IMG/VR virus record: IMGVR_UViG_3300042549_004948 | Coordinates: 98,470-162,469 of that record | Source of the DNA: a virus | DNA: 64,000 nucleotides | Strand: one strand, 5' to 3' | In this document: positions 27,800-36,980 of the stretch, one piece after another | Layout of the letters: the number at the start of each line of letters is the position of its first letter | Numbering within the stretch: position 1 is the stretch's first letter | Notes under the pieces: generated by a model | The model's database searches: none | Told to the model about the DNA's origin: nothing | The model's input: only the letters and a program-made list of their open reading frames with translations | Translations under genes and position numbers: made by a program

Positions 27800-28447
27800 T
27801 TAATTAAACATGTCGTAATGTCTTGGATAGATATGTAAGTTTGTTATAAAGAAATGCATTTGACCTACAGGATATCCGGTTCTGTAAGATACGTGTTCCA
27901 TAAGTTTAGCAAATGTGTATTGATCATTACAGAAGCCAAAGACAAGATCGATAGATCTAGCAAATATAGTTAATTCTAGCTTACCGTCTTTAATATAAAA
28001 ATTAAGTACATCATTACACGGTGTATCATATTTGTATCTGTCTAACTCATGCAAAATGTAGTGAACTATAATAGCTCGTCTAGTTTCTTTATTTAGCTTT
28101 AGATCATTGACAACGCGATTAAGTTGATCGTTGTAATTCCAAAAGTATCCATAATTAGAATTAACTTCTGTAGTACCTGGTACCATCATTTGATTCCAGA
28201 TCTTGGCACGTTCACCTATTTCTTTTGCATCACGATCTCCTTTACGATACCATTCCCATTCGTATTCTGCATAGTCTTGATTAAACTTACGCTTTGGTGA
28301 AGTAATTACTTTTTGTGTAGGATCTTGTATAGTGAATGATGAATTAAATATTGCTTTGGTACCTGCAAAGTCTTCACCTTTGTCAATGATGTAGTGAAAC
28401 AGATTCTCGAATGCACTGGTTGGTGTAATGTATTTTTTAGTCTCCAT
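27800..28447 (-). CDS. thymidylate-synthase-family enzyme of dCMP hydroxymethylase type (T4 gp42-like)
   Basis: NSNYG, ETRRA, catalytic TPC, RSIDLVFGFCND (Asp at the ThyA Asn177 position), NLHIY. Confidence 0.82.
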   Translation of the reverse strand: METKKYITPTSAFENLFHYIIDKGEDFAGTKAIFNSSFTIQDPTQKVITSPKRKFNQDYAEYEWEWYRKGDRDAKEIGERAKIWNQMMVPGTTEVNSNYGYFWNYNDQLNRVVNDLKLNKETRRAIIVHYILHELDRYKYDTPCNDVLNFYIKDGKLELTIFARSIDLVFGFCNDQYTFAKLMEHVSYRTGYPVGQMHFFITNLHIYPRHYDMFN

Positions 28448-28838
28448 ATTGTTCTACTTCTATAAACTGTTTAAGAAAGTTAACGCCTTCTAAATTACGA
28501 TACTGATTCAAATATACAACTCTTTTTATTCCTGATTGCAAAATAACTTTGGAGCAGTCTAAACAAGGACTAAGTGTTAAGTACAAAGTGGAACCATCTA
28601 CAGAGTTGCCTGTCTTGGCTGCTTTAATAATTACATTTATTTCAGCATGGATAACATGAGGTAGAGTGACATTATCTCTCTCGCAACAATTGTCCATACC
28701 AGAAGGAGTCCCATTATATCCAAAACTTATCAAGTTGCCGTCTTTAACTAAAACTGCGCCTACCTTAGATCGAACGCAGTGTGACAGAGTAGATGTTTCT
28801 TTTGCTATGTTTATAAATACTTTGTCTAGTTTATTCAT
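28437..28838 (-). CDS. dCMP deaminase
   Basis: KVGAVLV, GYNGTP, HAEIN, SPCLDC; start at MNKLDK. Confidence 0.92.
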   Translation of the reverse strand: MNKLDKVFINIAKETSTLSHCVRSKVGAVLVKDGNLISFGYNGTPSGMDNCCERDNVTLPHVIHAEINVIIKAAKTGNSVDGSTLYLTLSPCLDCSKVILQSGIKRVVYLNQYRNLEGVNFLKQFIEVEQYGD

Positions 28839-28839
28839 A

Positions 28840-29268
28840 TTATAATCCAGTTGAACCGAACCCTCCTGAACCTCTTTCTGTATTTCTAGATTGTAATTCT
28901 TCAACTTCCTCTACATCAAAATAAGCAACAGGAATTAATACAAACTGAACTAATTTTTGTCCTGTGGCAATTATTTGAGGCATATCTGAAGTATTAATCA
29001 TGTGTAAATGAACTTCTCCTTCATAATCTTCATCAACAACACAAGCGCCAACAGAGAGACCTTGTTTTACTGCTACTCCTGATTTATTAAATGCAATCAA
29101 TGCATAACCTCTAGGAACTTGAACTTTAATTCCTGATGGAATTAATACTGACTCTCCTGGTTTTAGTGACACTGTTTCAAAATCTTCTGGCACATAGAAG
29201 TCTATTCCTGCTGATGAAGATGTTCCTCTATTTGGTGTTTTTACGTTTCGTAACTTTTGTAGTTTCAT
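28840..29268 (-). CDS. dut: trimeric dUTPase
   Basis: SAGIDF, KSG, VVDEDYEGE, RGSGGFGSTG. Confidence 0.92.
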   Translation of the reverse strand: MKLQKLRNVKTPNRGTSSSAGIDFYVPEDFETVSLKPGESVLIPSGIKVQVPRGYALIAFNKSGVAVKQGLSVGACVVDEDYEGEVHLHMINTSDMPQIIATGQKLVQFVLIPVAYFDVEEVEELQSRNTERGSGGFGSTGL

Positions 29269-29533
29269 TTTGTAAATCATTTTGGTAATCATTTAGTGAA
29301 GCCATATATGCAACACAATCTAGGAGATTGTCCTGTTTATGGTTATAAGCCTGTCTCGACAACTTAAGTGCAATCATACAGTTGTACATATCAACTGCAG
29401 TTAACTCTTTACGGCTTAATAACGATGCAATCTTGGCAGCTTCTTGCATACCGTCTTGCATTGGCCCATATTGACGGGCCTTTTCTTCAGATCTCTTGTA
29501 GATGATCTCGTTTGCTTGTTCAAGTATATTCAT
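29228..29533 (-). CDS. DUF6378-like small helical protein (nucleotide-modification associated)
   Basis: ILEQANEII..R...YG, MIALKLSR, DNLLDCVAY. Confidence 0.7.
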   Translation of the reverse strand: MNILEQANEIIYKRSEEKARQYGPMQDGMQEAAKIASLLSRKELTAVDMYNCMIALKLSRQAYNHKQDNLLDCVAYMASLNDYQNDLQNETTKVTKRKNTK

Positions 29534-29569
29534 AGGATAAATATAAAAAATAATATCGAAATGGTAAAA

Positions 29570-30457
29570 CTAAAGTCCTAAGTACCTAGTAATATCAGAT
29601 TTATCGCCCCACTCTCTTTGAGAATCAACATCACTTGCTTTAATTGTAGGCTTGGGCATATTTCTAGCCACATTCCAGAACCAATCTCCTAAGTGGCCGT
29701 ATTTTTTCATGAGTTCCCAACCTTTAGCGTCATAAGTTTGTATGCAATCAAATGGCGGAATTATTCTAGACTCTTTTAAAAATGCTCTATCATGAGTATA
29801 AAACTTAGCTCTGCCTAATTCACCAGGTTGTACATTTCTTGCAACTGCTACTGCATTAAACTTTGTGTTAGGTAAAGCAATCTGAAGTGTTCTAGATAGC
29901 ACTCCTGTGGAAAATACTGACCACATATTTGGAATTCTTTTATCTTTAAATGCTTCATGAAATATTCTAACTCCTCCGGCTACAACTTGCTCATGCTTAA
30001 GGCCGAATGGTAGATATTTTGCGCCAATCTTTTCTGCAAAGTTTTTTGCCCAGGCATTAATAGTCGGCATAGCAGGAGTCTTTAAAAATATTGGCGTTGC
30101 CCCATCTTCAATAACTCTTAACTGATGTTCAGATGCTTCTTTAGACGCGGGCATAAATAGTATAAGCTTCTTGTTATATTTTTTTGCAAGATACGTAAGT
30201 GAATAAGGAGCATATCCTGTTCTTGGTGCTACGTAAACTAAAGTGTCTTCTTTTACTTGGCTGATCATGAAGTCTCCCATCTTGGCTTTACTACCATATT
30301 GAAATTCTCCATCATCGACTATTGTAAAACCTTCTGCTTGTTTTAGCATGAATTCAAAATCAGGCTTATAGTCTTTTGTCATTTCTAGATAGTAGTTTAG
30401 ATCTCTACCACCTGACATGTCTAAGTTCGATTGATCTGTCGCTTTGTTTAAAAACAT
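29570..30457 (-). CDS. PLP-dependent enzyme, fold-type-II-like
   Basis: GSKAK candidate Schiff-base Lys, VYVAPRTGYA, WSVFSTGVLSR phosphate loop, YDAKGW. Confidence 0.65.
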   Translation of the reverse strand: MFLNKATDQSNLDMSGGRDLNYYLEMTKDYKPDFEFMLKQAEGFTIVDDGEFQYGSKAKMGDFMISQVKEDTLVYVAPRTGYAPYSLTYLAKKYNKKLILFMPASKEASEHQLRVIEDGATPIFLKTPAMPTINAWAKNFAEKIGAKYLPFGLKHEQVVAGGVRIFHEAFKDKRIPNMWSVFSTGVLSRTLQIALPNTKFNAVAVARNVQPGELGRAKFYTHDRAFLKESRIIPPFDCIQTYDAKGWELMKKYGHLGDWFWNVARNMPKPTIKASDVDSQREWGDKSDITRYLGL

Positions 30458-30465
30458 CAGTTTTT

Positions 30466-31149
30466 TTATTTATTTTTTTCTTCTTTTTGAAGTTCTTTGC
30501 TTAATTCAATAATAGGCACAGGAGTTCCTACAGGATATGGAAAACTATCTTTAGCCGCAGTAATAGATTTCATTCCAGATGTAACAGGAACAGCTTTACG
30601 AAGTGGAACTGCTGCTTCATTAAGTGGTCCGTATACTCTTGCTAATATAATACCTGTAGATGTTGTATCAAAGATAATACCTGGCATAGCAAACATATTA
30701 CTTTCGCTTGTGCTTGGATGATCAAGATTTACAATAAATGCACGATTTACTGGTGGTAATAATTCCCACTCCTTAGATGCTGGATTAAATTGAGGTACTG
30801 TAGTTGCTGAATCATAGTACCAAAATAAAGACCAGACAGTAGTGTCAGTTCCGTCAGGAGTTTGGAAGTTTTCGTTTACATTAAACTTTCCGTAAGTTCC
30901 GCTAATACCTTCCATTGCTAAATTAGAAATAGATGGTCCTGTTAATACAGGGCATATTGCGCATCCTTCATCATATTCTACTCCTTGAACAACAATCTTT
31001 TTTCCGGTAGGAATTGCGGCTGATGCACCACAGAAAGCAAAAGATCCTTGGTGAATCTTTACAGCTTTATCAGATTTAATATCTTCATTTGTCTTACAAC
31101 TAACTAATACTGTTAGTAGACTAACTACTATGAGTGCGATTTTTTTCAT
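30466..31149 (-). CDS. lipoprotein of unknown function
   Basis: Lipobox LVSC; FCGASAA, CAICP. Confidence 0.7.
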   Translation of the reverse strand: MKKIALIVVSLLTVLVSCKTNEDIKSDKAVKIHQGSFAFCGASAAIPTGKKIVVQGVEYDEGCAICPVLTGPSISNLAMEGISGTYGKFNVNENFQTPDGTDTTVWSLFWYYDSATTVPQFNPASKEWELLPPVNRAFIVNLDHPSTSESNMFAMPGIIFDTTSTGIILARVYGPLNEAAVPLRKAVPVTSGMKSITAAKDSFPYPVGTPVPIIELSKELQKEEKNK

Positions 31150-31159
31150 TTTTTTTGTT

Positions 31160-32203
31160 TTATTTTAATTTGCGAGCGAAGTCATAATATTTGTCATGAC
31201 CCCACGTTTGTTTAAGAATTGTGTTATTGCTCATCCTACGACCGTTGTTTTTTATAATGTGATCGTCTGATTGATATTCTTGAAAATAGCGTACTACGTC
31301 ACATGCTCTGCTATCTTCACAATCAATAGGATTTAAGTTATATCTATTAGATAAGAATTGAAGTACTTCGTTAATGTATTCAAACTCTTTTACTTTAGGA
31401 CTAACTTTAGGAAATATAGCTTTAATACAACGAACCGCGTTAGTGCCTGCATAAACCCAGCCTTTAGGATTAACATACTGTGGAAAATACTCTGCTAGAT
31501 CTGCTGCAAATGCTGTTACAACAAAGTTTTGTCTTTTGAATCCTATATTATTTAAGTACTCATTACCTAAGTCTGTTACTTGGTAGATGTCAAGCTTCTT
31601 TTTAGTAACTGCATCATAAAGATGTCTAACTAAACCTTCTGCATGTTCAAGAATAAAACGTCTCAAGTGACCTCTTGTTTCTCCTTCAAAAGTAAATTGA
31701 GGAAGTAAGTACCCTTTGTTGTCTGTAAATGGCGTGATCCTATTATAAAGGTCCTGCTTCCATTCTGGCCATGTGTAATGTTCTTTCAATATAGAATCCA
31801 CAATCCAGAAATTACCGAAGCCATGCGTACCCAGGATGTCCTTGATATGATCTGTCTTATATCTAGGCACATAATTGATACCAGAACCACAGAGTCTGAA
31901 TAAGTAAAATAACATGAACCAATCGAAGTCATCTTTAATGTTATGATGTGTAAAGTGATTACCCATTCCTCTTAAGTCTTTCTCTTTATACCATACAGCT
32001 TCAGTGAATGCACAGAATGCAGCAAATCTACGGTGCGCCGTATCATAAATAGGCACATGATAAATCAAGTCGTCATTTACATCTTTGTATAGGTCTCCAT
32101 CATAAGGAAGCTTTAGGCTTCCATGCTGTTGCATTAAGAGGCTACGTTTATCGTATTCATCTAAGGCCTCAAGTAACTTTTCATTAATTATAAATTTCTG
32201 CAT
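31160..32203 (-). CDS. aGPT-Pplase clade 1 / HMUDK-helical-like DNA base-modification enzyme
   Basis: Ordered motifs DDLIYHVPIYDTAHR, YLFRL, FVVTAFAADLAEY, VYAGTNAVRCI, IDCEDSRACDVVRY follow the family pattern (DPIL..Y.F.N..R / FR / F.AY....DL / GPGA..G / D....CE..KY). Confidence 0.65.
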   Translation of the reverse strand: MQKFIINEKLLEALDEYDKRSLLMQQHGSLKLPYDGDLYKDVNDDLIYHVPIYDTAHRRFAAFCAFTEAVWYKEKDLRGMGNHFTHHNIKDDFDWFMLFYLFRLCGSGINYVPRYKTDHIKDILGTHGFGNFWIVDSILKEHYTWPEWKQDLYNRITPFTDNKGYLLPQFTFEGETRGHLRRFILEHAEGLVRHLYDAVTKKKLDIYQVTDLGNEYLNNIGFKRQNFVVTAFAADLAEYFPQYVNPKGWVYAGTNAVRCIKAIFPKVSPKVKEFEYINEVLQFLSNRYNLNPIDCEDSRACDVVRYFQEYQSDDHIIKNNGRRMSNNTILKQTWGHDKYYDFARKLK

Positions 32204-32204
32204 A

Positions 32205-33140
32205 TTATTTTATAAATTCGTTTGCGAACATATAGTATTTAGGTTTCAAATGCACTGACTGTTTAGGCTCCATATACTCAAACATCTTCATGCCATCTTC
32301 ATCAATCCATTCGTCTGGCCATTGAATTGTTTTAAGGCCTGAGTTATTCATTATCCTATTTGCCGCGTCTCTTAAATCCATTCTTTCTTGTCTAGTACCA
32401 AAGTATGGTTGTTTGAGATATAAACCTGTACCTGGTAATTTACGACTTTCGTGCTCAATAGGTAATAAATTAACTAGAGTTGCATTATTTAATTTCTTAG
32501 CAAACTCTATATATCTTCTAAATAGATCTCCTACTGCTGCTCTTGGATTTTCTTGTCTCATTAAGTGAAAGCGAAGATCAATATTACCAAAGTATAAAAT
32601 GACTTCGTCATACTTTTCATTCCAAACATCAACTAAAGAGTCTGCGTCTTTTAAGAAGCCGAATAGAGTTTTACCGTCGGTTCTATCAAGACCAAAACCA
32701 GGCTTCCAAACACTAAGTGAGTGAGAGTCACCTCTTACTAGCTTTCTAGTATCTTCTCCATATAGTCTAGCATATGGTATAGTATTGATAGCCGAGAATT
32801 GATGATCAACCCCAAACCTCTTATTGAAAACATTCATATCAATAGGAGTGTTGACTGCTATAGGAAGCCCAGTATATTTTGCCATGGCTTCTAGCTTTTC
32901 TTTGTGTTCAGGTTGAGGCCCTCCAATAAAGTTAAAGATGTTCTCTTGATAGTTGACTCCTTCTAAAATATAGAGTCTTTCATATTCATTCCAAGTAGAA
33001 GGTTCAGGATTAACAGTCAATCCTTCAGGATGATAACTTCTTAGTATACTTAACATAACGTGGTAGTAGCCTCCACCATGGTGAGAAGTAGAGTTACCAA
33101 CATTGTTGAGCATTCCTATAACAGCTGCTTTCATAACCAT
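32205..33140 (-). CDS. protein with C-terminal SGNH-hydrolase-like domain
   Basis: GDSHS, YFGNIDLRFH, SVHL blocks. Confidence 0.6.
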   Translation of the reverse strand: MVMKAAVIGMLNNVGNSTSHHGGGYYHVMLSILRSYHPEGLTVNPEPSTWNEYERLYILEGVNYQENIFNFIGGPQPEHKEKLEAMAKYTGLPIAVNTPIDMNVFNKRFGVDHQFSAINTIPYARLYGEDTRKLVRGDSHSLSVWKPGFGLDRTDGKTLFGFLKDADSLVDVWNEKYDEVILYFGNIDLRFHLMRQENPRAAVGDLFRRYIEFAKKLNNATLVNLLPIEHESRKLPGTGLYLKQPYFGTRQERMDLRDAANRIMNNSGLKTIQWPDEWIDEDGMKMFEYMEPKQSVHLKPKYYMFANEFIK

Positions 33141-33199: not shown

Positions 33200-33222
33200 A
33201 AAAAAGCCCTCCGAAGAGGGCT
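33200..33222 (-). terminator. UUCG terminator, copy 1 of 3
   Basis: AGCCCTC-TTCG-GAGGGCT followed by a T tract. Confidence 0.85.
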
Positions 33223-33475: not shown

Positions 33476-33497
33476 AAAAACCCCACTTTAGTGGGGC
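33476..33497 (-). terminator. intrinsic terminator
   Basis: CCCCAC-TAAA-GTGGGG-TTTTT. Confidence 0.8.
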
Positions 33498-33522
33498 TTT
33501 ATTTTGAAATTTTTATTTAGGA

Positions 33523-34311: not shown

Positions 34312-34334
34312 AAAAAAGCCCTCCGAAGAGGGCT
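34312..34334 (-). terminator. UUCG terminator after groEL, copy 2 of 3
   Basis: AGCCCTC-TTCG-GAGGGCT followed by a T tract. Confidence 0.85.
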
Positions 34335-34343
34335 CTTTATTTT

Positions 34344-35960
34344 TTACATTCCCATACCCATCATAGGGTCGGCTTTTTCATCTTTGTCTTTTTTTTCAAA
34401 TACAACTGATTCTGTAGTTAGAATTGTTCCGGCAACGGATGCAGCATTCTTGAGGGCGGTAATAACCACCTTTGCTGGATCAATGATACCTGCTTCAAGA
34501 GCATTCACTATTTTGTGACTCTTTGCATCGTATACTTGGCCTTCGCCTGGGATATTCTCGAACCAGTTTTCTACTCCGGCATTACTCAAGATCTTCTTGA
34601 ATGGTGATTGAAGTGCGGTTCTTACAATGTCTCTAGCAATAGCAACATTTGAATTGCTCTCTGCTCTATGGTTTAATGATACTCTGTAAAGAGTTGCACC
34701 ACCACCTGGAACAATGCCGTCTGCAAGTGCAGCTTTAGTTGCGAACAAGGCGTCTTCTACACGATCTTTCTTTTCTTTGATCTCAATATCACTATTTCCA
34801 CCAACAGAAATGATCGCAACACCACCGACTAGTTTACCTAATCTCTCTTGTAGCTTTTCTCTCTCATAGAAAGAGGTTGCCTTTTCTATTTGCTCTTTAA
34901 TTTCTATCGCTCTATTAGCCAAAGCTGTTTCATCACCTTTACCATCAATGATAGTAGTCTCTTCTTTAGAAACCGTGATAAGTCTAGTTGATCCAAGATA
35001 CTGAGCTAGTTGTTGCGTAGATAGTTTATCAAGCTTTAAACCTTTGTCTTTAGAGATAACTTGGCCGCCGGTCAAGATAGCAATGTCTTCAAGGATCAAA
35101 GTCTTACGCTCACCAAAGTCTGGTGCTTTAACTGCGCAAACTTGTACGATGCCACGCATCTTATTAACAATGAGTGTAGCAAGTGCTTCATCTCCAATGT
35201 CTTCAGCGATGATCAACAAAGGTCTATTCTCAGAGTTAGCTTTAGTTAGTACTTGTAGTAGCTCTTGAGCTGTAGAAATACGACCATCATAAAGTAGTAC
35301 ATAAGGATTGTCAAGCACGGCTTGCATCGTTGTGTTATTAGTCACAAAATAAGGTGACTTATAACCACGATCAAACTGCATACCTTCTACGATCTCGAGT
35401 GTTGTTTCACCAGACTTAGACTCTTCAATAGTAACCACACCTTCACGACCTACTTTATCAATAGCTTCGCTGATAAGGTTACCTACTTCTGAATCGTTAT
35501 TACCTGATATAGTTGCAACTTGTTTGATTTGCTCTTCTGAAGATATTTCGATTGCCATATCTTTTATTTCTTGCACGATTTCATTTACAATCTTATCGAT
35601 CTCATTCTTGATCTCTACTGCATTAGATCCTTGACGAATCTCTTTCAAGCCTGCTTTAACAAGCTCTGTAGCGATCAATGTAGATGTTGTTGTACCATCA
35701 CCTGCTTCATTTGCACTTTTAATACTAACTTGTTTAACTAGCTGCGCTCCAAGGTCTTCGATATCATCTTCTAACTTGTGGAATGCTTTTGCAACTGTTA
35801 CTCCGTCCTTAGTAACTTTAACTTCACCAGATTGTTCTCTGATTAAAACAGTTCTACCACCTGGACCTAATGTAGATGTAACTGACGCATTTAGCTTTTC
35901 TATGCCTGACAGAAGCTTTTCTTTAAGCTCTGTTCCGAAAACATTTTTTGTTGTACTCAT
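34344..35960 (-). CDS. groEL: chaperonin GroEL
   Basis: TLGPGGR, TKDGVTVA, AGDGTTT, EGMQFDRGY, GIVPGGG, MMGMGM tail. Confidence 0.97.
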   Translation of the reverse strand: MSTTKNVFGTELKEKLLSGIEKLNASVTSTLGPGGRTVLIREQSGEVKVTKDGVTVAKAFHKLEDDIEDLGAQLVKQVSIKSANEAGDGTTTSTLIATELVKAGLKEIRQGSNAVEIKNEIDKIVNEIVQEIKDMAIEISSEEQIKQVATISGNNDSEVGNLISEAIDKVGREGVVTIEESKSGETTLEIVEGMQFDRGYKSPYFVTNNTTMQAVLDNPYVLLYDGRISTAQELLQVLTKANSENRPLLIIAEDIGDEALATLIVNKMRGIVQVCAVKAPDFGERKTLILEDIAILTGGQVISKDKGLKLDKLSTQQLAQYLGSTRLITVSKEETTIIDGKGDETALANRAIEIKEQIEKATSFYEREKLQERLGKLVGGVAIISVGGNSDIEIKEKKDRVEDALFATKAALADGIVPGGGATLYRVSLNHRAESNSNVAIARDIVRTALQSPFKKILSNAGVENWFENIPGEGQVYDAKSHKIVNALEAGIIDPAKVVITALKNAASVAGTILTTESVVFEKKDKDEKADPMMGMGM

Positions 35961-35971
35961 AATGATTTTGT

Positions 35972-36265
35972 TTATTCGATAACTGCAAATATATCTGATT
36001 CTTTACAAATGAAATAGTCTTGTCCATCAAGTACTACTCTTTGTGATCCTAGTTTAGGAATCAACACGACATCTCCAACTTGTAGAGTTGAAATAACTAG
36101 CTTGTCTGTGTTATAGTTGTAGACATCAGATGTTCCAACTACTTCTCCCATTTCAGGTCTTTCTTTACCAAGGTCTGGAATAATTATATTACCAAACGTT
36201 TCTTCTTCTGTTTCTATAGGCTTCAATAATATAAAGCCATTTAGAGGGGTTATTTTTTTATCCAT
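35972..36265 (-). CDS. groES: co-chaperonin GroES
   Basis: ITPLNG, GNIIIPD, KERPEMGEVV, ESDIFAVI. Confidence 0.9.
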   Translation of the reverse strand: MDKKITPLNGFILLKPIETEEETFGNIIIPDLGKERPEMGEVVGTSDVYNYNTDKLVISTLQVGDVVLIPKLGSQRVVLDGQDYFICKESDIFAVIE

Positions 36266-36269
36266 AATG

Positions 36270-36464
36270 TTAATTTACAATTTCTAATTCATTTATTTTA
36301 ACACAAAAATAGAGTAGGCCATCTTTTTTGAAGACACCTTCTACTCCATACCAAATTTTAAAGTCGTCTAGGTTTTTGCCGTTTACGAACTCTTCTCTTA
36401 GGATTTTTTTGACTTCAAATAAGTCACCATTGATGTCAATAAAATTTCTGTGCAGTTGAAACAT
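36270..36464 (-). CDS. hypothetical protein
   Basis: Lies between hsp20 and groES. Confidence 0.6.
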   Translation of the reverse strand: MFQLHRNFIDINGDLFEVKKILREEFVNGKNLDDFKIWYGVEGVFKKDGLLYFCVKINELEIVN

Positions 36465-36468
36465 AACT

Positions 36469-36980
36469 AAGGTTGTGAGTAGGCCTTTTTTTTTACTTAA
36501 TTTTTATTTGCTTTACAGCCGTACCTTCTGCTGTAGGAACTGTTATAATTAGCAGTCCTCTATCTAAGGAAGCTTCTAGTTTGTTTAGATCAAACTTAGT
36601 TGAAATTTTCCAAGTAAGATTAAAAGATGATCTCTTAATACCTCTGTATATTGGAGACTCTTCAGGCTTATTTGGTTTCTCGTATGTAATTCGTAATTGA
36701 TCACCGTCGACAATGATATCTATATCGTTCTTGTCTAGGCCTACTGCGGCTACTTCAAATCGAATGCCGTCTTCTGTTTCAAAAATGTCTACTGGATGTG
36801 ATATCTTCTGCGTAATTGCAGAAAAGTGTGGTGCTGATTCAAAGAGATCTTTCCAGAGCAAGTCAAATGGATCGAGCTCGAATGGTCTTAATATTCCCAT
36901 ATTGTTTTGTTTTGTGTTCCCTTACGGTGAACGGTTTATAAATGTTTATTTCATAACTAAAGGCCTACTCACAGTACCTT
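36469..36980. repeat. inverted repeat flanking hsp20
   Basis: tgtgagtaggccttt (36474-36488) is the exact reverse complement of aaaggcctactcaca (36959-36973); a further 5 bp aaggt/acctt lies beyond a 2-nt bulge. Confidence 0.9.
36493..36900 (-). CDS. Hsp20/alpha-crystallin small heat shock protein
   Basis: PVDIFE, AVGLDKNDIDI, RGIKRSSF, ASLDRGLLIITVP, IKIK. Confidence 0.92.
   Translation of the reverse strand: MGILRPFELDPFDLLWKDLFESAPHFSAITQKISHPVDIFETEDGIRFEVAAVGLDKNDIDIIVDGDQLRITYEKPNKPEESPIYRGIKRSSFNLTWKISTKFDLNKLEASLDRGLLIITVPTAEGTAVKQIKIK

What the first reader, a model, noticed from the sequence alone, without database searches (positions are those of the whole stretch)
27800..33140. 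DNA hypermodification cluster pairing a cytosine-type hydroxymethylase with thymidine-hypermodification enzymes
Seen in transcription order: SGNH-like, aGPT-Pplase1-like, (lipoprotein), PLP enzyme, DUF6378, dUTPase, dCMP deaminase, TS-family enzyme. The TS motif RSIDLVFGFCND has Asp where dUMP-specific enzymes have Asn, as in T4 dCMP hydroxymethylase. Known: aGPT-Pplase-family and PLP enzymes build amino-substituted bases on 5-hydroxymethyluracil in phiW-14/ViI/M6-type pathways, which use dUMP hydroxymethylase and a kinase. No such kinase is visible in this window, and an SGNH acyl-enzyme is added. Inference: either an amino- or acyl-substituted cytosine made from 5hmC, or a route dCMP to hm-dCMP to hm-dUMP through the adjacent deaminase. 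Either would be a new pathway, probably for anti-restriction.
Basis: partly seen in the sequence, partly recalled or inferred. Interest (0 to 1): 0.85.

Follow-up and report, generated by a model that had tools for sequence, protein, structure and literature searches.

The report
Kinase-free hydroxymethylcytosine DNA decoration cassette
This uncultured T4-like lake phage has an enzyme of the type that makes T4's modified cytosine. Next to it sits a conserved trio of enzymes related to those that hang amino acids on thymine in other phages, so its DNA probably carries a decorated cytosine that nobody has described chemically.

Summary
Eight tightly packed minus-strand genes (33140 to 27800) encode:
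- a two-domain protein, with an N-terminus like T4 beta-glucosyltransferase and an SGNH acyl-enzyme fold;
- a helical protein with a DNA-glycosylase-like fold, like amino-acid:DNA transferases (AADT), with an invariant Cys;
- an inserted lipoprotein;
- a PLP enzyme homologous to M6 gp52, the proven DNA decarboxylase;
- DUF6378, dUTPase and dCMP deaminase;
- the genome's only thymidylate-synthase homologue.

That homologue has the full T4 dCMP-hydroxymethylase signature: Asp at ThyA positions 143, 169 and 177, and Cys at 146.

The SGNH, helical and PLP genes keep the same order in 83 related loci. The first two are fused in at least eight metagenomic proteins. Every neighbouring synthase homologue examined is the cytosine (Asp177) type.

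No 5-hmU DNA kinase, ThyX, HD enzyme, T4 gp1 or gp56 homologue was found in this genome.

Best reading (0.6): 5-hydroxymethylcytosine is made and then decorated, most likely on DNA, with an amino-acid-derived group. The SGNH protein stands where the kinase stands in thymine pathways. The chemistry is inferred.

The helical protein is not a sequence member of Pfam ADDT. I found no paper describing this system. The scan has noted the same cassette before on other DNA (41 notes, at least 33 genomes).

The parts
32205..33140 (-). Two-domain protein (311 aa; likely start at 33134). The N-terminal ~100 aa are homologous to the N-terminus of T4 beta-glucosyltransferase. Residues 123-306 have an SGNH/GDSL acyl-enzyme fold with GDSHS (Ser136), Gly158, GNID (Asn183) and SVH (His294). 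Proposed to act on the 5-hydroxymethyl group of cytosine in DNA.
   Evidence: No Pfam hit. phrog_13881/17781. AF2 pLDDT 87. SGNH fold: Foldseek E 6e-5, VIA Z 10-12. hhalign against T4 b-gt: Prob 88.9%, E 2.4e-6 over residues 1-97. Conserved residues. Fused to the next gene's product in 8 metagenomic proteins.
31160..32203 (-). 347-aa all-helical protein with a DNA-glycosylase (HhH)-like, AADT-like fold. It has an invariant Cys301 in the motif E-D-S-R-x-C-D. Proposed base-flipping, Cys-dependent group transferase at C5-methylene of the modified cytosine.
   Evidence: No Pfam hit at E<=10. AF2 pLDDT 92. BFVD hit to an 'Amino acid:DNA transferase domain' protein, E 6.7e-12, TM 0.71, then Pplase1 and HMUDK-helical proteins. 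PDB VIA: QNG1/DUF2419 Z 9.0, PaMx11 gp46 PUGT Z 8.7, AGOG/OGG/Nth Z 5-8. Conserved residues. PaMx11 motif E243-T-x-x-C247 versus D297-S-x-x-C301.
30466..31149 (-). 227-aa lipoprotein (signal peptide, lipobox Cys18). It is an insertion within the cassette and probably not part of the pathway.
   Evidence: Sequence. No family hit. Present between the helical and PLP genes in only 18 of 83 loci, all close relatives.
29570..30457 (-). 295-aa fold-type-II PLP enzyme. It is a homologue of M6 gp52, the PLP-dependent decarboxylase that acts on amino-acid-modified bases in DNA. Lys56 is the candidate PLP lysine.
   Evidence: phrog_7093 E 1.4e-27. M6 gp52 is phrog_7093, E 2e-159. hhalign against gp52: Prob 86%, E 4.9e-6, with shared PFxC..YDxKxW...FWN motifs. 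Lys56 aligns with the PLP lysine of cysteine synthase, but weakly, E 0.045. Relatives carry Pfam PALP.
29228..29533 (-). DUF6378 protein (101 aa). It is a conserved companion of the cassette and its function is unknown.
   Evidence: PF19905 E 3.4e-13. Present in 74 of 83 loci. No PDB, T4 gp56 or literature clue.
28840..29292 (-). Trimeric-type dUTPase (150 aa).
   Evidence: PF00692 E 1.3e-24, phrog_135. No similarity to T4 gp56.
28437..28904 (-). dCMP deaminase (HAE and PCxxC zinc motifs). The probable true start is the ATG at 28838.
   Evidence: PF00383 E 9.4e-25, phrog_174 E 1.8e-55. Sequence.
27800..28447 (-). The genome's only thymidylate-synthase homologue (215 aa), of the T4 gp42 dCMP-hydroxymethylase type. 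At the E. coli ThyA positions it has Asp at 143, Cys at 146, Asp at 169 and Asp at 177.
   Evidence: PF00303, 85 bits. Best PDB hit is T4 dCMP hydroxymethylase 1B49. Signature DCRDD, interpreted with PMC13326640. Only one TS-family gene and no ThyX in the genome.
33205..33222 (-). Terminator-like hairpin (AGCCCTCTTCGGAGGGCT followed by a T run) just upstream of the cassette. No comparable terminator lies inside 27800-33140, so the cassette reads as one transcription unit.
   Evidence: Gene gaps of 1-36 nt or overlaps.

Best explanation
The cluster is a two-stage system for a modified cytosine.

Stage 1 (nucleotide pool). The synthase homologue converts dCMP to 5-hydroxymethyl-dCMP, as T4 gp42 does. 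The dUTPase and dCMP deaminase do ordinary pool work, and host ThyA makes dTMP. 5hmC then enters phage DNA through the nearby T4-type polymerase.

Stage 2 (most likely on DNA). The two-domain protein uses its glucosyltransferase-like N-terminal domain to address 5hmC. Its SGNH Ser-His site forms or transfers an acyl group on the hydroxymethyl oxygen, so it takes the place held by the 5-hmU DNA kinase in thymine pathways. The helical AADT-like protein flips the base. Its invariant Cys301 attacks C6, expels the leaving group, and lets an amino acid add to the exocyclic methylene. The gp52-like PLP enzyme then decarboxylates the appended amino acid, which leaves an amino-alkyl-type substituent on cytosine.

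Shown here: gene identities, folds, active-site signatures, conserved linkage, fusions and absence of a kinase.

Inferred: that 5hmC is made and incorporated, that the trio acts on DNA, the order of steps, the acyl activation, and the nature of the final group.
For: - TS homologue. T4 gp42 is the best PDB hit, with an identical VFGFxND motif. The signature is Asp143, Cys146, Asp169 and Asp177 in this gene and in all 66 complete neighbouring homologues. L002, L003 and L100 carry the same signature. L102 has Asp169 and Asp177 but Met at position 143. The meaning of these residues comes from PMC13326640.
- PLP protein. Same PHROG family as M6 gp52, and hhalign Prob 86%. gp52 and ViI gp226 are proven DNA decarboxylases (PMC8989533).
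- Helical protein. Its fold matches ADDT-domain and HMUDK-helical viral proteins and the solved PaMx11 glycinyltransferase. It has an invariant Cys in an acidic-hydroxyl-x-x-Cys context like E243-T-x-x-C247 of PaMx11 gp46.
- SGNH protein. It has the fold and a Ser/Gly/Asn/His set. Its N-terminus is homologous to T4 beta-glucosyltransferase, an enzyme that acts on 5hmC in DNA.
- Linkage. The order SGNH, helical, PLP is invariant in 83 loci. Natural SGNH::helical fusions keep every conserved residue.
- A distant operon (L100) reads dCMP deaminase, dimeric dUTPase, fusion, PLP, Tmk-like kinase, Asp-type synthase.
- No HMUDK, ADDT, ThyX or HD domain is found in the genome.
- The cassette lies downstream of the DNA polymerase, where T4 has genes 42 and b-gt.
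Against: - No chemistry was measured.
- The helical protein fails every sequence test for ADDT membership. Its PDB fold scores (Z about 9) are no higher for the transferase than for the queuine-salvage glycosylase QNG1, and they are modest for an all-helical protein.
- The equivalence of Cys301 to PaMx11 Cys247 rests on motif and position, not on a superposition.
- This genome shows no gp1/Tmk-type dNMP kinase and no gp56-type dCTPase. How hm-dCMP reaches the triphosphate, and how fully C is replaced, is therefore open. Only a Zeta-toxin-like kinase lies elsewhere.
- No acyl donor is identified, and no SGNH enzyme is known to act on DNA bases.
- The hhalign links to gp52 and b-gt have probabilities of 86-89%, not over 95%.
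Confidence: 0.6

Rival explanations
1. Thymine route. hm-dCMP, or dCMP via dUMP, is turned by the adjacent deaminase into hm-dUMP. The trio then decorates 5-hydroxymethyluracil, as in M6 and ViI, and the final base is a modified thymine.
For: All characterised AADT and gp52-type enzymes act on hmU derivatives (PMC8989533). A dCMP deaminase lies next to the synthase homologue. The phage has no dTMP synthase of its own.
Against: The deaminase is absent within 10 kb in 34 of 83 loci, including the whole 60-65% identity group, whereas the Asp-type synthase stays. T4 itself combines cd with gene 42 without making hmU. No HD-type dTTP- or dTMP-removing enzyme and no hmU DNA kinase is found. The SGNH protein's N-terminus is related to an enzyme that recognises 5hmC. 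The thymine-pathway synthases of M6 and PaMx11 keep Asn in this motif.
Confidence: 0.12
2. Ester-type or simpler decoration. The BGT-like/SGNH protein alone, guided by the helical partner as a non-catalytic base-flipping module, puts an acyl or aminoacyl ester on 5hmC. The PLP enzyme edits that group or supplies the donor. There is no AADT-type substitution.
For: The helical domain is fused to SGNH just as the non-kinase helical domain is fused to the kinase in 5-HMUDK. Aeromonas phages of the 44RR type have gene 42 and no glucosyltransferase (PMC2993671). They carry the SGNH module with a different C-terminal region and no PLP or helical-family gene.
Against: Cys301 and its acidic neighbours are invariant down to about 25% identity, which suggests catalysis rather than mere binding. 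A gp52-type decarboxylase needs a free alpha-amino acid, which a carboxyl ester would not offer.
Confidence: 0.15
3. The trio does not touch DNA. It works on free nucleotides, on RNA or tRNA, or in amino-acid metabolism, and it is only a neighbour of an ordinary T4-like hmC/nucleotide cluster.
For: The top PDB fold match of the helical protein is the queuosine-nucleotide glycosylase QNG1/DUF2419. Fold-II PLP enzymes and SGNH esterases are mostly small-molecule enzymes. No dNMP kinase for hm-dCMP is seen in this genome.
Against: Linkage to Asp-type synthases holds in every context examined, with otherwise different neighbours. The PLP protein is specifically related to the DNA-acting gp52 family, and relatives are fused to a DNA methylase. 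The N-terminal domain is BGT-like. The viral structural neighbours are DNA-modification proteins.
Confidence: 0.08
4. The synthase homologue makes something other than hm-dCMP (5-methyl-dCMP or 5-hydroxy-dCMP), and the cassette builds on that base.
For: The family includes dCMP methylases and the newly found 5-hydroxy-dCMP synthases (PMC13326640). One distant cassette (L102) has Met instead of Asp at position 143.
Against: Here position 169 is Asp, not the Asn that is diagnostic of 5-hydroxy-dCMP synthases. Position 143 is Asp, as in hydroxymethylases.
Confidence: 0.05

Closest known systems
Thymidine hypermodification pathways of phages M6, ViI, PaMx11 and PhiW-14 (dUMP hydroxymethylase, 5-hmdU DNA kinase, amino-acid:DNA transferase, PLP decarboxylase; Lee et al. 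2018 and 2021, PMC5889632 and PMC8989533; PaMx11 gp46 structure, PMC11472151)
   Same: - A TS-family hydroxymethylase supplies a 5-hydroxymethylpyrimidine.
- A helical, DNA-glycosylase-like protein has a conserved Cys.
- A PLP enzyme is in the same family as M6 gp52 (phrog_7093).
- The genes are clustered near the replication genes.
- Fusions occur between the 'activating' enzyme and the helical domain.
   Different: - The hydroxymethylase is the cytosine (Asp177) type, not the uracil (Asn) type.
- There is no P-loop 5-HMUDK and no HMUDK_hel domain.
- A BGT-N/SGNH acyl-enzyme protein stands in the kinase's place.
- The helical protein has no detectable sequence similarity to Pfam ADDT.
- There is no radical-SAM, FAD or acetyltransferase partner, and no HD nucleotidase.
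T4 hydroxymethylcytosine system (gp42, gp56, gp1, alpha- and beta-glucosyltransferases)
   Same: - The synthase is gp42-type with the same active-site signature.
- It sits downstream of the DNA polymerase.
- A dCMP deaminase is present.
- The first ~100 residues of the SGNH protein are homologous to T4 beta-glucosyltransferase.
   Different: - There is no UDP-glucose-binding domain or glucosyltransferase.
- No gp56 or gp1 homologue is detected.
- Decoration is predicted to be derived from an amino acid or acyl group rather than a sugar.
Aeromonas phages 44RR2.8t, 31 and 25 (Biquartavirus) ORF233c, a 795-aa protein of unknown function (phrog_17781)
   Same: - The N-terminal 330 aa are homologous over the full length to the BGT-N/SGNH protein, with all catalytic residues.
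- These phages encode a gp42 with the hydroxymethylase signature and lack glucosyltransferases (PMC2993671).
   Different: - The C-terminal 460 aa are not recognisably the same helical family; there is only a weak, sub-threshold HMUDK_hel hit.
- No gp52-like PLP gene is found in those genomes.
5-hydroxycytosine arabinosylation systems of RB69 and DLP3 (PMC13326640)
   Same: A TS homologue with Asp177 and an acidic residue at 143 provides a modified dCMP that is then decorated on DNA.
   Different: Those synthases carry Asn at position 169 and bind flavin, and decoration is by glycosyltransferases. Here position 169 is Asp and no DNA glycosyltransferase is linked.

Membership tests
T4-type dCMP hydroxymethylase (gp42; thymidylate synthase superfamily, PF00303) | Significant match to the TS family model | tested here: met
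   PF00303, 85.3 bits against a cut-off of 24.3. T4 dCMP hydroxymethylase is the best PDB hit, E 7.7e-17.
T4-type dCMP hydroxymethylase (gp42; thymidylate synthase superfamily, PF00303) | Catalytic Cys (ThyA C146), and Asp instead of Asn at ThyA 177 (dCMP specificity) | tested here: met
   DTPCND and RSIDLVFGFCND. The columns are aligned to T4 and scored. The rule comes from PMC13326640.
T4-type dCMP hydroxymethylase (gp42; thymidylate synthase superfamily, PF00303) | Acidic residue at ThyA 143 (hydroxymethyl rather than methyl product), and Asp kept at ThyA 169 (not the Asn of 5-hydroxy-dCMP synthases) | tested here: met
   Asp at both positions in the window gene and in 66 of 66 complete neighbours.
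T4-type dCMP hydroxymethylase (gp42; thymidylate synthase superfamily, PF00303) | Formation of 5-hydroxymethyl-dCMP from dCMP and methylene-tetrahydrofolate | not testable with these tools
   Needs an enzyme assay or in vivo expression followed by LC-MS.
Amino-acid:DNA transferase (Pfam PF18724 ADDT, formerly aGPT-Pplase; PaMx11 gp46, M6 gp51, ViI gp247) | Match to the family HMM or profile | tested here: not met
   No Pfam hit at E<=10. No PF18724 match in the genome. Only 1 of 51 distant relatives reaches E 0.001. hhalign of A1 and A4 against the gp46 family gives Prob about 1%.
Amino-acid:DNA transferase (Pfam PF18724 ADDT, formerly aGPT-Pplase; PaMx11 gp46, M6 gp51, ViI gp247) | Two-bundle helical, DNA-glycosylase-like fold | tested here: met
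   Foldseek BFVD hit to an ADDT-domain protein, E 6.7e-12, TM 0.71/0.65, then Pplase1 and HMUDK-helical proteins. VIA Z 8.7 to PaMx11 gp46 (8z2m), within a list made up of HhH glycosylases. For a helical protein, the Z value alone would not be decisive.
Amino-acid:DNA transferase (Pfam PF18724 ADDT, formerly aGPT-Pplase; PaMx11 gp46, M6 gp51, ViI gp247) | Catalytic Cys that attacks C6 (PaMx11 Cys247 in E243-T244-x-x-C247) | tested here: inconclusive
   Cys301 is invariant in D297-S298-x-x-C301, at a similar distance from the C-terminus. No residue-level superposition could be made.
Amino-acid:DNA transferase (Pfam PF18724 ADDT, formerly aGPT-Pplase; PaMx11 gp46, M6 gp51, ViI gp247) | Works downstream of a 5-hmdU DNA kinase and a dUMP (Asn-type) hydroxymethylase | tested here: not met
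   No HMUDK_hel in the genome. All linked synthases are Asp-type, in contrast to M6 and PaMx11.
PLP-dependent DNA decarboxylases of the M6 gp52 / ViI gp226 type (phrog_7093, fold type II) | Sequence homology to gp52 | tested here: met
   phrog_7093 E 1.4e-27 over profile positions 34-278 of 279. gp52 itself scores E 2e-159. hhalign Prob 86%, E 4.9e-6.
PLP-dependent DNA decarboxylases of the M6 gp52 / ViI gp226 type (phrog_7093, fold type II) | PLP-binding lysine | tested here: inconclusive
   Lys56 is invariant and aligns with the PLP lysine of cysteine synthase, but at E 0.045. The hhalign to gp52 does not cover gp52 Lys36.
PLP-dependent DNA decarboxylases of the M6 gp52 / ViI gp226 type (phrog_7093, fold type II) | Decarboxylation of an amino acid attached to a base in DNA | not testable with these tools
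   Needs biochemistry.
SGNH/GDSL hydrolase-acyltransferase superfamily | Fold | tested here: met
   Residues 123-306: Foldseek PDB E 6e-5 with prob 1.0, and VIA Z 10-12 to many GDSL esterases and to the PatB/OatA O-acetyltransferases.
SGNH/GDSL hydrolase-acyltransferase superfamily | Ser, Gly, Asn and His catalytic/oxyanion residues | tested here: met
   GDSHS, Gly158, GNID and SVH are invariant in 16 homologues, in 8 fusions and in 44RR ORF233c. The Asp of the usual DxxH block is Gln here.
SGNH/GDSL hydrolase-acyltransferase superfamily | Match to a curated SGNH family model | tested here: not met
   No Pfam family at E<=10.
T4 beta-glucosyltransferase (BGT) | N-terminal domain homology | tested here: met
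   hhalign of A2 against T4 b-gt: Prob 88.9%, E 2.4e-6, residues 1-97 against 1-101, with shared MKxxIxxxxNN, NDYDxL and INFFGG motifs. An HMM search of PDB did not recover it.
T4 beta-glucosyltransferase (BGT) | C-terminal UDP-glucose-binding domain | tested here: not met
   The alignment stops at BGT residue 101, and the rest of the protein is an SGNH fold.
5-hmdU DNA kinase (5-HMUDK: P-loop kinase plus HMUDK_hel) | P-loop kinase domain with the PF18723 helical domain | tested here: not met
   No PF18723 match in the genome. The only small P-loop proteins are a PhoH and a Zeta-toxin-like kinase far from the cassette.

The most novel reading that the evidence does not exclude
An SGNH acyl-enzyme, aimed at DNA by a glucosyltransferase-derived domain, O-acylates 5-hydroxymethylcytosine, so that a carboxylate rather than a phosphate is the leaving group. 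A new Cys-dependent family of base-flipping transferases then installs an amino acid, which a gp52-type PLP enzyme decarboxylates. The result would be a cytosine counterpart of the ViI/M6 bases, for example an aminoethoxymethyl- or aminoalkyl-cytosine, in many aquatic T4-like phages. This would be the first acyl-enzyme step in DNA base modification and the first amino-acid-derived hypermodified cytosine.
Probability: 0.3. Interest if true: 0.9.

Novelty: new variant of a known kind. Interest (0 to 1): 0.8.

Why it matters
Known hypermodified cytosines in phage DNA are sugar adducts, apart from a few recent exceptions. Amino-acid-derived groups are known only on thymine and adenine.

This cassette would extend the amino-acid chemistry to cytosine and bring in a new way of activating the hydroxymethyl group without a DNA kinase. 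It also defines two unnamed protein families. One is a helical, Cys-bearing transferase-like family. The other is a glucosyltransferase-N/SGNH chimera. Both are abundant in lake and marine phages.

Such bases shape phage resistance to restriction and CRISPR, they confound sequencing, and their enzymes are useful tools for labelling 5hmC. The Aeromonas phages 44RR2.8t, 31 and 25 have long been known to have gene 42 without glucosyltransferases. They offer a cultured entry point for the SGNH part.

Tried and rejected
- Pfam at E<=10 for the four unnamed proteins gave nothing useful, apart from a weak PALP hit.
- PF18724 and PF18723 searched across the genome: none.
- blastn and tblastn of the region and of the 347-aa protein against 50,697 cultured phage records found no homologue of the helical protein.
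- Profile search of PDB with the helical family (A1) found nothing. Foldseek against PDB had no hit below E 1.
- hhalign of A1/A4 against PaMx11 gp46, alone or as a 29-sequence family, and against the C-terminus of 44RR ORF233c, was not significant.
- DUF6378 against PDB, T4 gp56 and the literature gave no clue.
- T4 gp1, Tmk, gp56 and HD domain in the own genome: none found.
- The Walker-A scan found only PhoH and a Zeta-toxin-like kinase, unlinked to the cassette.
- ESM Atlas on the N-terminal domain gave no usable hit.
- HMM search of PDB with A2 did not recover BGT.
- A3 and A4 profiles against the 44RR2.8t and PTm1 genomes: none.
- Considered and rejected: the synthase as a dTMP synthase (Asp177), the synthase as a 5-hydroxy-dCMP synthase (Asp169), and the lipoprotein as a pathway member (18 of 83 loci).

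Full report
**Setting**

The window is bases 98470-162469 of a 162,469-bp IMG/VR phage record, estimated 95% complete. It has about 33% G+C. Earlier notes of this scan describe it as a T4-like freshwater phage. All genes of the finding lie on the minus strand, separated by 1-36 nt or overlapping. A T4-type DNA polymerase gene lies 4.6 kb upstream, after GroES/GroEL and Hsp20 genes. A terminator-like hairpin at 33205-33222 precedes the first gene, and no comparable one lies inside the block.

**The observation**

Pfam and PHROGs confirm four assignments:
- a TS-family protein at 27800-28447;
- a dCMP deaminase at 28437-28904;
- a trimeric dUTPase at 28840-29292;
- DUF6378 at 29228-29533.

The other four proteins have no Pfam family, even at E<=10. 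The protein at 30466-31149 has a signal peptide and a lipobox cysteine.

**The synthase homologue**

It is the only TS-family gene in the genome, and there is no ThyX. Its best match among solved structures is T4 dCMP hydroxymethylase. Its RSIDLVFGFCND aligns to T4 RSNDVVFGFRND, and EYEWEWY aligns to T4 QRELEWY.

A 2026 paper gives the residue rules at the E. coli ThyA positions (PMC13326640):
- Asp at 177 selects dCMP.
- An acidic residue at 143 goes with a hydroxymethyl rather than a methyl product.
- Asn at 169 marks the newly found 5-hydroxy-dCMP synthases.

The window protein has Asp143, Cys146, Arg166, Asp169 and Asp177. This is the T4 gp42 signature and not the 5-hydroxy-dCMP one.

**The PLP protein**

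It hits phrog_7093 at E 1.4e-27. M6 gp52 was shown biochemically to decarboxylate a glycine-modified base in DNA (PMC8989533). It is a full-length member of phrog_7093, at E 2e-159.

A profile of 17 homologues aligns to gp52 with 86% probability (E 4.9e-6). The two share distinctive C-terminal motifs: PFxC..YDxKxW and FWN. An invariant Lys56 aligns with the PLP lysine of cysteine synthase, though weakly. Relatives carry Pfam PALP. In Erythrobacter phage ZS04 the domain is fused to a DNA methylase domain.

**The helical protein**

An AF2 model (pLDDT 92.4) matches viral predicted structures:
- an 'Amino acid:DNA transferase domain' protein, at E 6.7e-12 and TM 0.71;
- then Pplase1 and 5-hmdU-DNA-kinase helical-domain proteins.

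Against solved structures, a Foldseek-independent search ranks these:
- the queuine-salvage glycosylase QNG1, Z 9.0;
- the PaMx11 5-PmdU glycinyltransferase gp46, Z 8.7;
- AGOG, OGG, Nth and AlkA glycosylases, Z 5-8.

All belong to one structural superfamily. For a helical protein, however, these Z values are modest.

Sequence tests for membership in Pfam ADDT all fail. I therefore call it AADT-like by fold, not a member.

An exhaustive profile search found only 116 representative clusters, none with a Pfam name. Across them Cys301 and the preceding acidic residues are conserved. In PaMx11 gp46 the proposed nucleophile is Cys247 within E243-T244-x-x-C247 (PMC11472151). The window protein has D297-S298-x-x-C301 at a similar distance from its C-terminus. 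I could not test this by superposition.

**The SGNH protein**

An AF2 model (pLDDT 87) gives an SGNH fold for residues 123-306. The matches include the PatB and OatA O-acetyltransferases. GDSHS, Gly158, GNID and SVH are invariant.

Following a lead from earlier notes, I compared the family with T4 beta-glucosyltransferase. The first 97 residues align to BGT 1-101 with 88.9% probability (E 2.4e-6) and shared motifs. The protein is therefore a chimera. It joins the N-terminal part of an enzyme that acts on 5hmC in DNA to an acyl-enzyme domain in place of the UDP-glucose domain.

**Linkage**

In 83 related loci (52-95% identity for the helical protein), the order SGNH, helical, PLP is invariant. 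Other genes are found nearby as follows:

| Gene | Loci out of 83 |
|---|---|
| DUF6378 | 74 |
| TS homologue | 67 |
| dCMP deaminase | 49 |
| dUTPase | 48 |
| Lipoprotein | 18 |

Several loci are short or truncated. All 66 complete TS homologues carry the Asp/Cys/Arg/Asp/Asp signature.

More distant contexts agree:
- L002 and L003.
- L100, which reads dCMP deaminase, dimeric dUTPase, SGNH::helical fusion, PLP, Tmk-like kinase, Asp-type TS.
- L102, which has Asp177 but Met at position 143.

By contrast, the synthases of the thymine-modifying phages M6 and PaMx11 keep Asn in this motif.

At least eight metagenomic proteins fuse the SGNH and helical proteins with every conserved residue intact. 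Thymine systems show a parallel arrangement: the kinase is fused to a helical domain, and kinase-PLP-AADT triple fusions are reported.

**Cultured relatives**

No cultured phage has the helical protein.

The SGNH protein has full-length homologues in Aeromonas phages of the 44RR2.8t, 31 and 25 type, where it forms the N-terminus of the 795-aa ORF233c. It also has homologues in Tenacibaculum phages PTm1/PTm5 and, by the organism tally alone, in Stenotrophomonas phages. The C-terminus of ORF233c gives only a sub-threshold HMUDK_hel hit.

44RR2.8t has a normal TS and a gp42 with the hydroxymethylase signature. A 2010 review notes that 44RR, 31 and 25 have genes 42 and 56 but no glucosyltransferase, and asks whether they modify hmC otherwise (PMC2993671). 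They lack the PLP and helical families.

**What is missing**

The genome has none of the following: HMUDK, ADDT, T4 gp1, Tmk, gp56 homologue or HD domain. The only small kinase-like protein is a Zeta-toxin-like P-loop protein 97 kb away. Phosphorylation of hm-dCMP and exclusion of dCTP are therefore unexplained in this genome, although relatives encode kinases in the cassette.

**Interpretation**

The best-supported reading has two stages. The phage first makes 5hmC. It then decorates it, most likely after replication, with machinery that works like the M6/ViI thymine pathways but is built differently. A BGT-N/SGNH acyl-enzyme takes the kinase's place. A new helical Cys family takes the place of AADT. 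A gp52-type PLP decarboxylase completes the set.

From my own knowledge, C5-cytosine methyltransferases can exchange the hydroxyl of 5hmC for thiols through the same C6-Cys chemistry. An AADT-like substitution on cytosine is therefore chemically reasonable.

The order of steps, the donor and the product are inferences. Rivals that remain open are the thymine route via the deaminase, an ester-only decoration, a non-DNA substrate, and a different synthase product.

**Novelty**

Full-text searches found no paper linking AADT-like or gp52-like enzymes, or any SGNH enzyme, to 5hmC. The library does not cover all journals. This scan has noted the same cassette repeatedly on other genomes, with similar readings. 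I treated those notes as leads only.

Noticed in passing
window 30466-31149 (-): A 227-aa lipoprotein gene sits between the helical and PLP genes, in only 18 of 83 related loci. It looks like a moron-type insertion into the cassette. Its function is unknown.
   Followed up: partly
own genome G000:C1:29275-30060 (-), outside the window (L095): A 261-aa Zeta-toxin-like P-loop kinase starts with MIKLLDLLLE, the capsid-targeting-like leader noted by another reader. It is the only candidate small-molecule kinase in a genome that lacks gp1 and Tmk.
   Followed up: partly
L104:2326-4764 (Erythrobacter phage ZS04 gp7); also Erythrobacter phage vB_EliS_R6L and Microcystis phage Mae-JY30: An 812-aa protein annotated as a DNA methyltransferase contains an N6_N4 methylase domain followed by a PALP domain homologous to the cassette's PLP protein. 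This is a possible further DNA-acting PLP enzyme.
   Followed up: partly
L086:4408-8388 (Aeromonas phage 44RR2.8t ORF234c-ORF233c): The 795-aa BGT-N/SGNH protein of 44RR2.8t lies directly after a phage-encoded sodium:solute symporter gene. This hints at import of a small-molecule donor.
   Followed up: no
L102:5552-6433: A distant cassette has a TS homologue with Asp at position 177 but Met at position 143. It lies next to a MazG-like dGTP_diPhyd_N protein. This may be a methyl-dCMP rather than a hydroxymethyl-dCMP variant of the system.
   Followed up: no
L003:965-1957: A 330-aa fusion of a Tmk-like P-loop kinase with a UDG-like domain lies directly upstream of an Asp-type TS homologue, in a phage carrying the same trio.
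   Followed up: no
window 33205-33222 and 34317-34334: Two terminator-like hairpins share the identical stem-loop AGCCCTCTTCGGAGGGCT. One follows the GroEL gene and one precedes the cassette. A third strong hairpin lies at 33477-33500.
   Followed up: no
window 34344-36900 (-): Phage-encoded GroEL (538 aa), GroES (97 aa) and an Hsp20-like protein lie between the DNA polymerase gene and the cassette.
   Followed up: no
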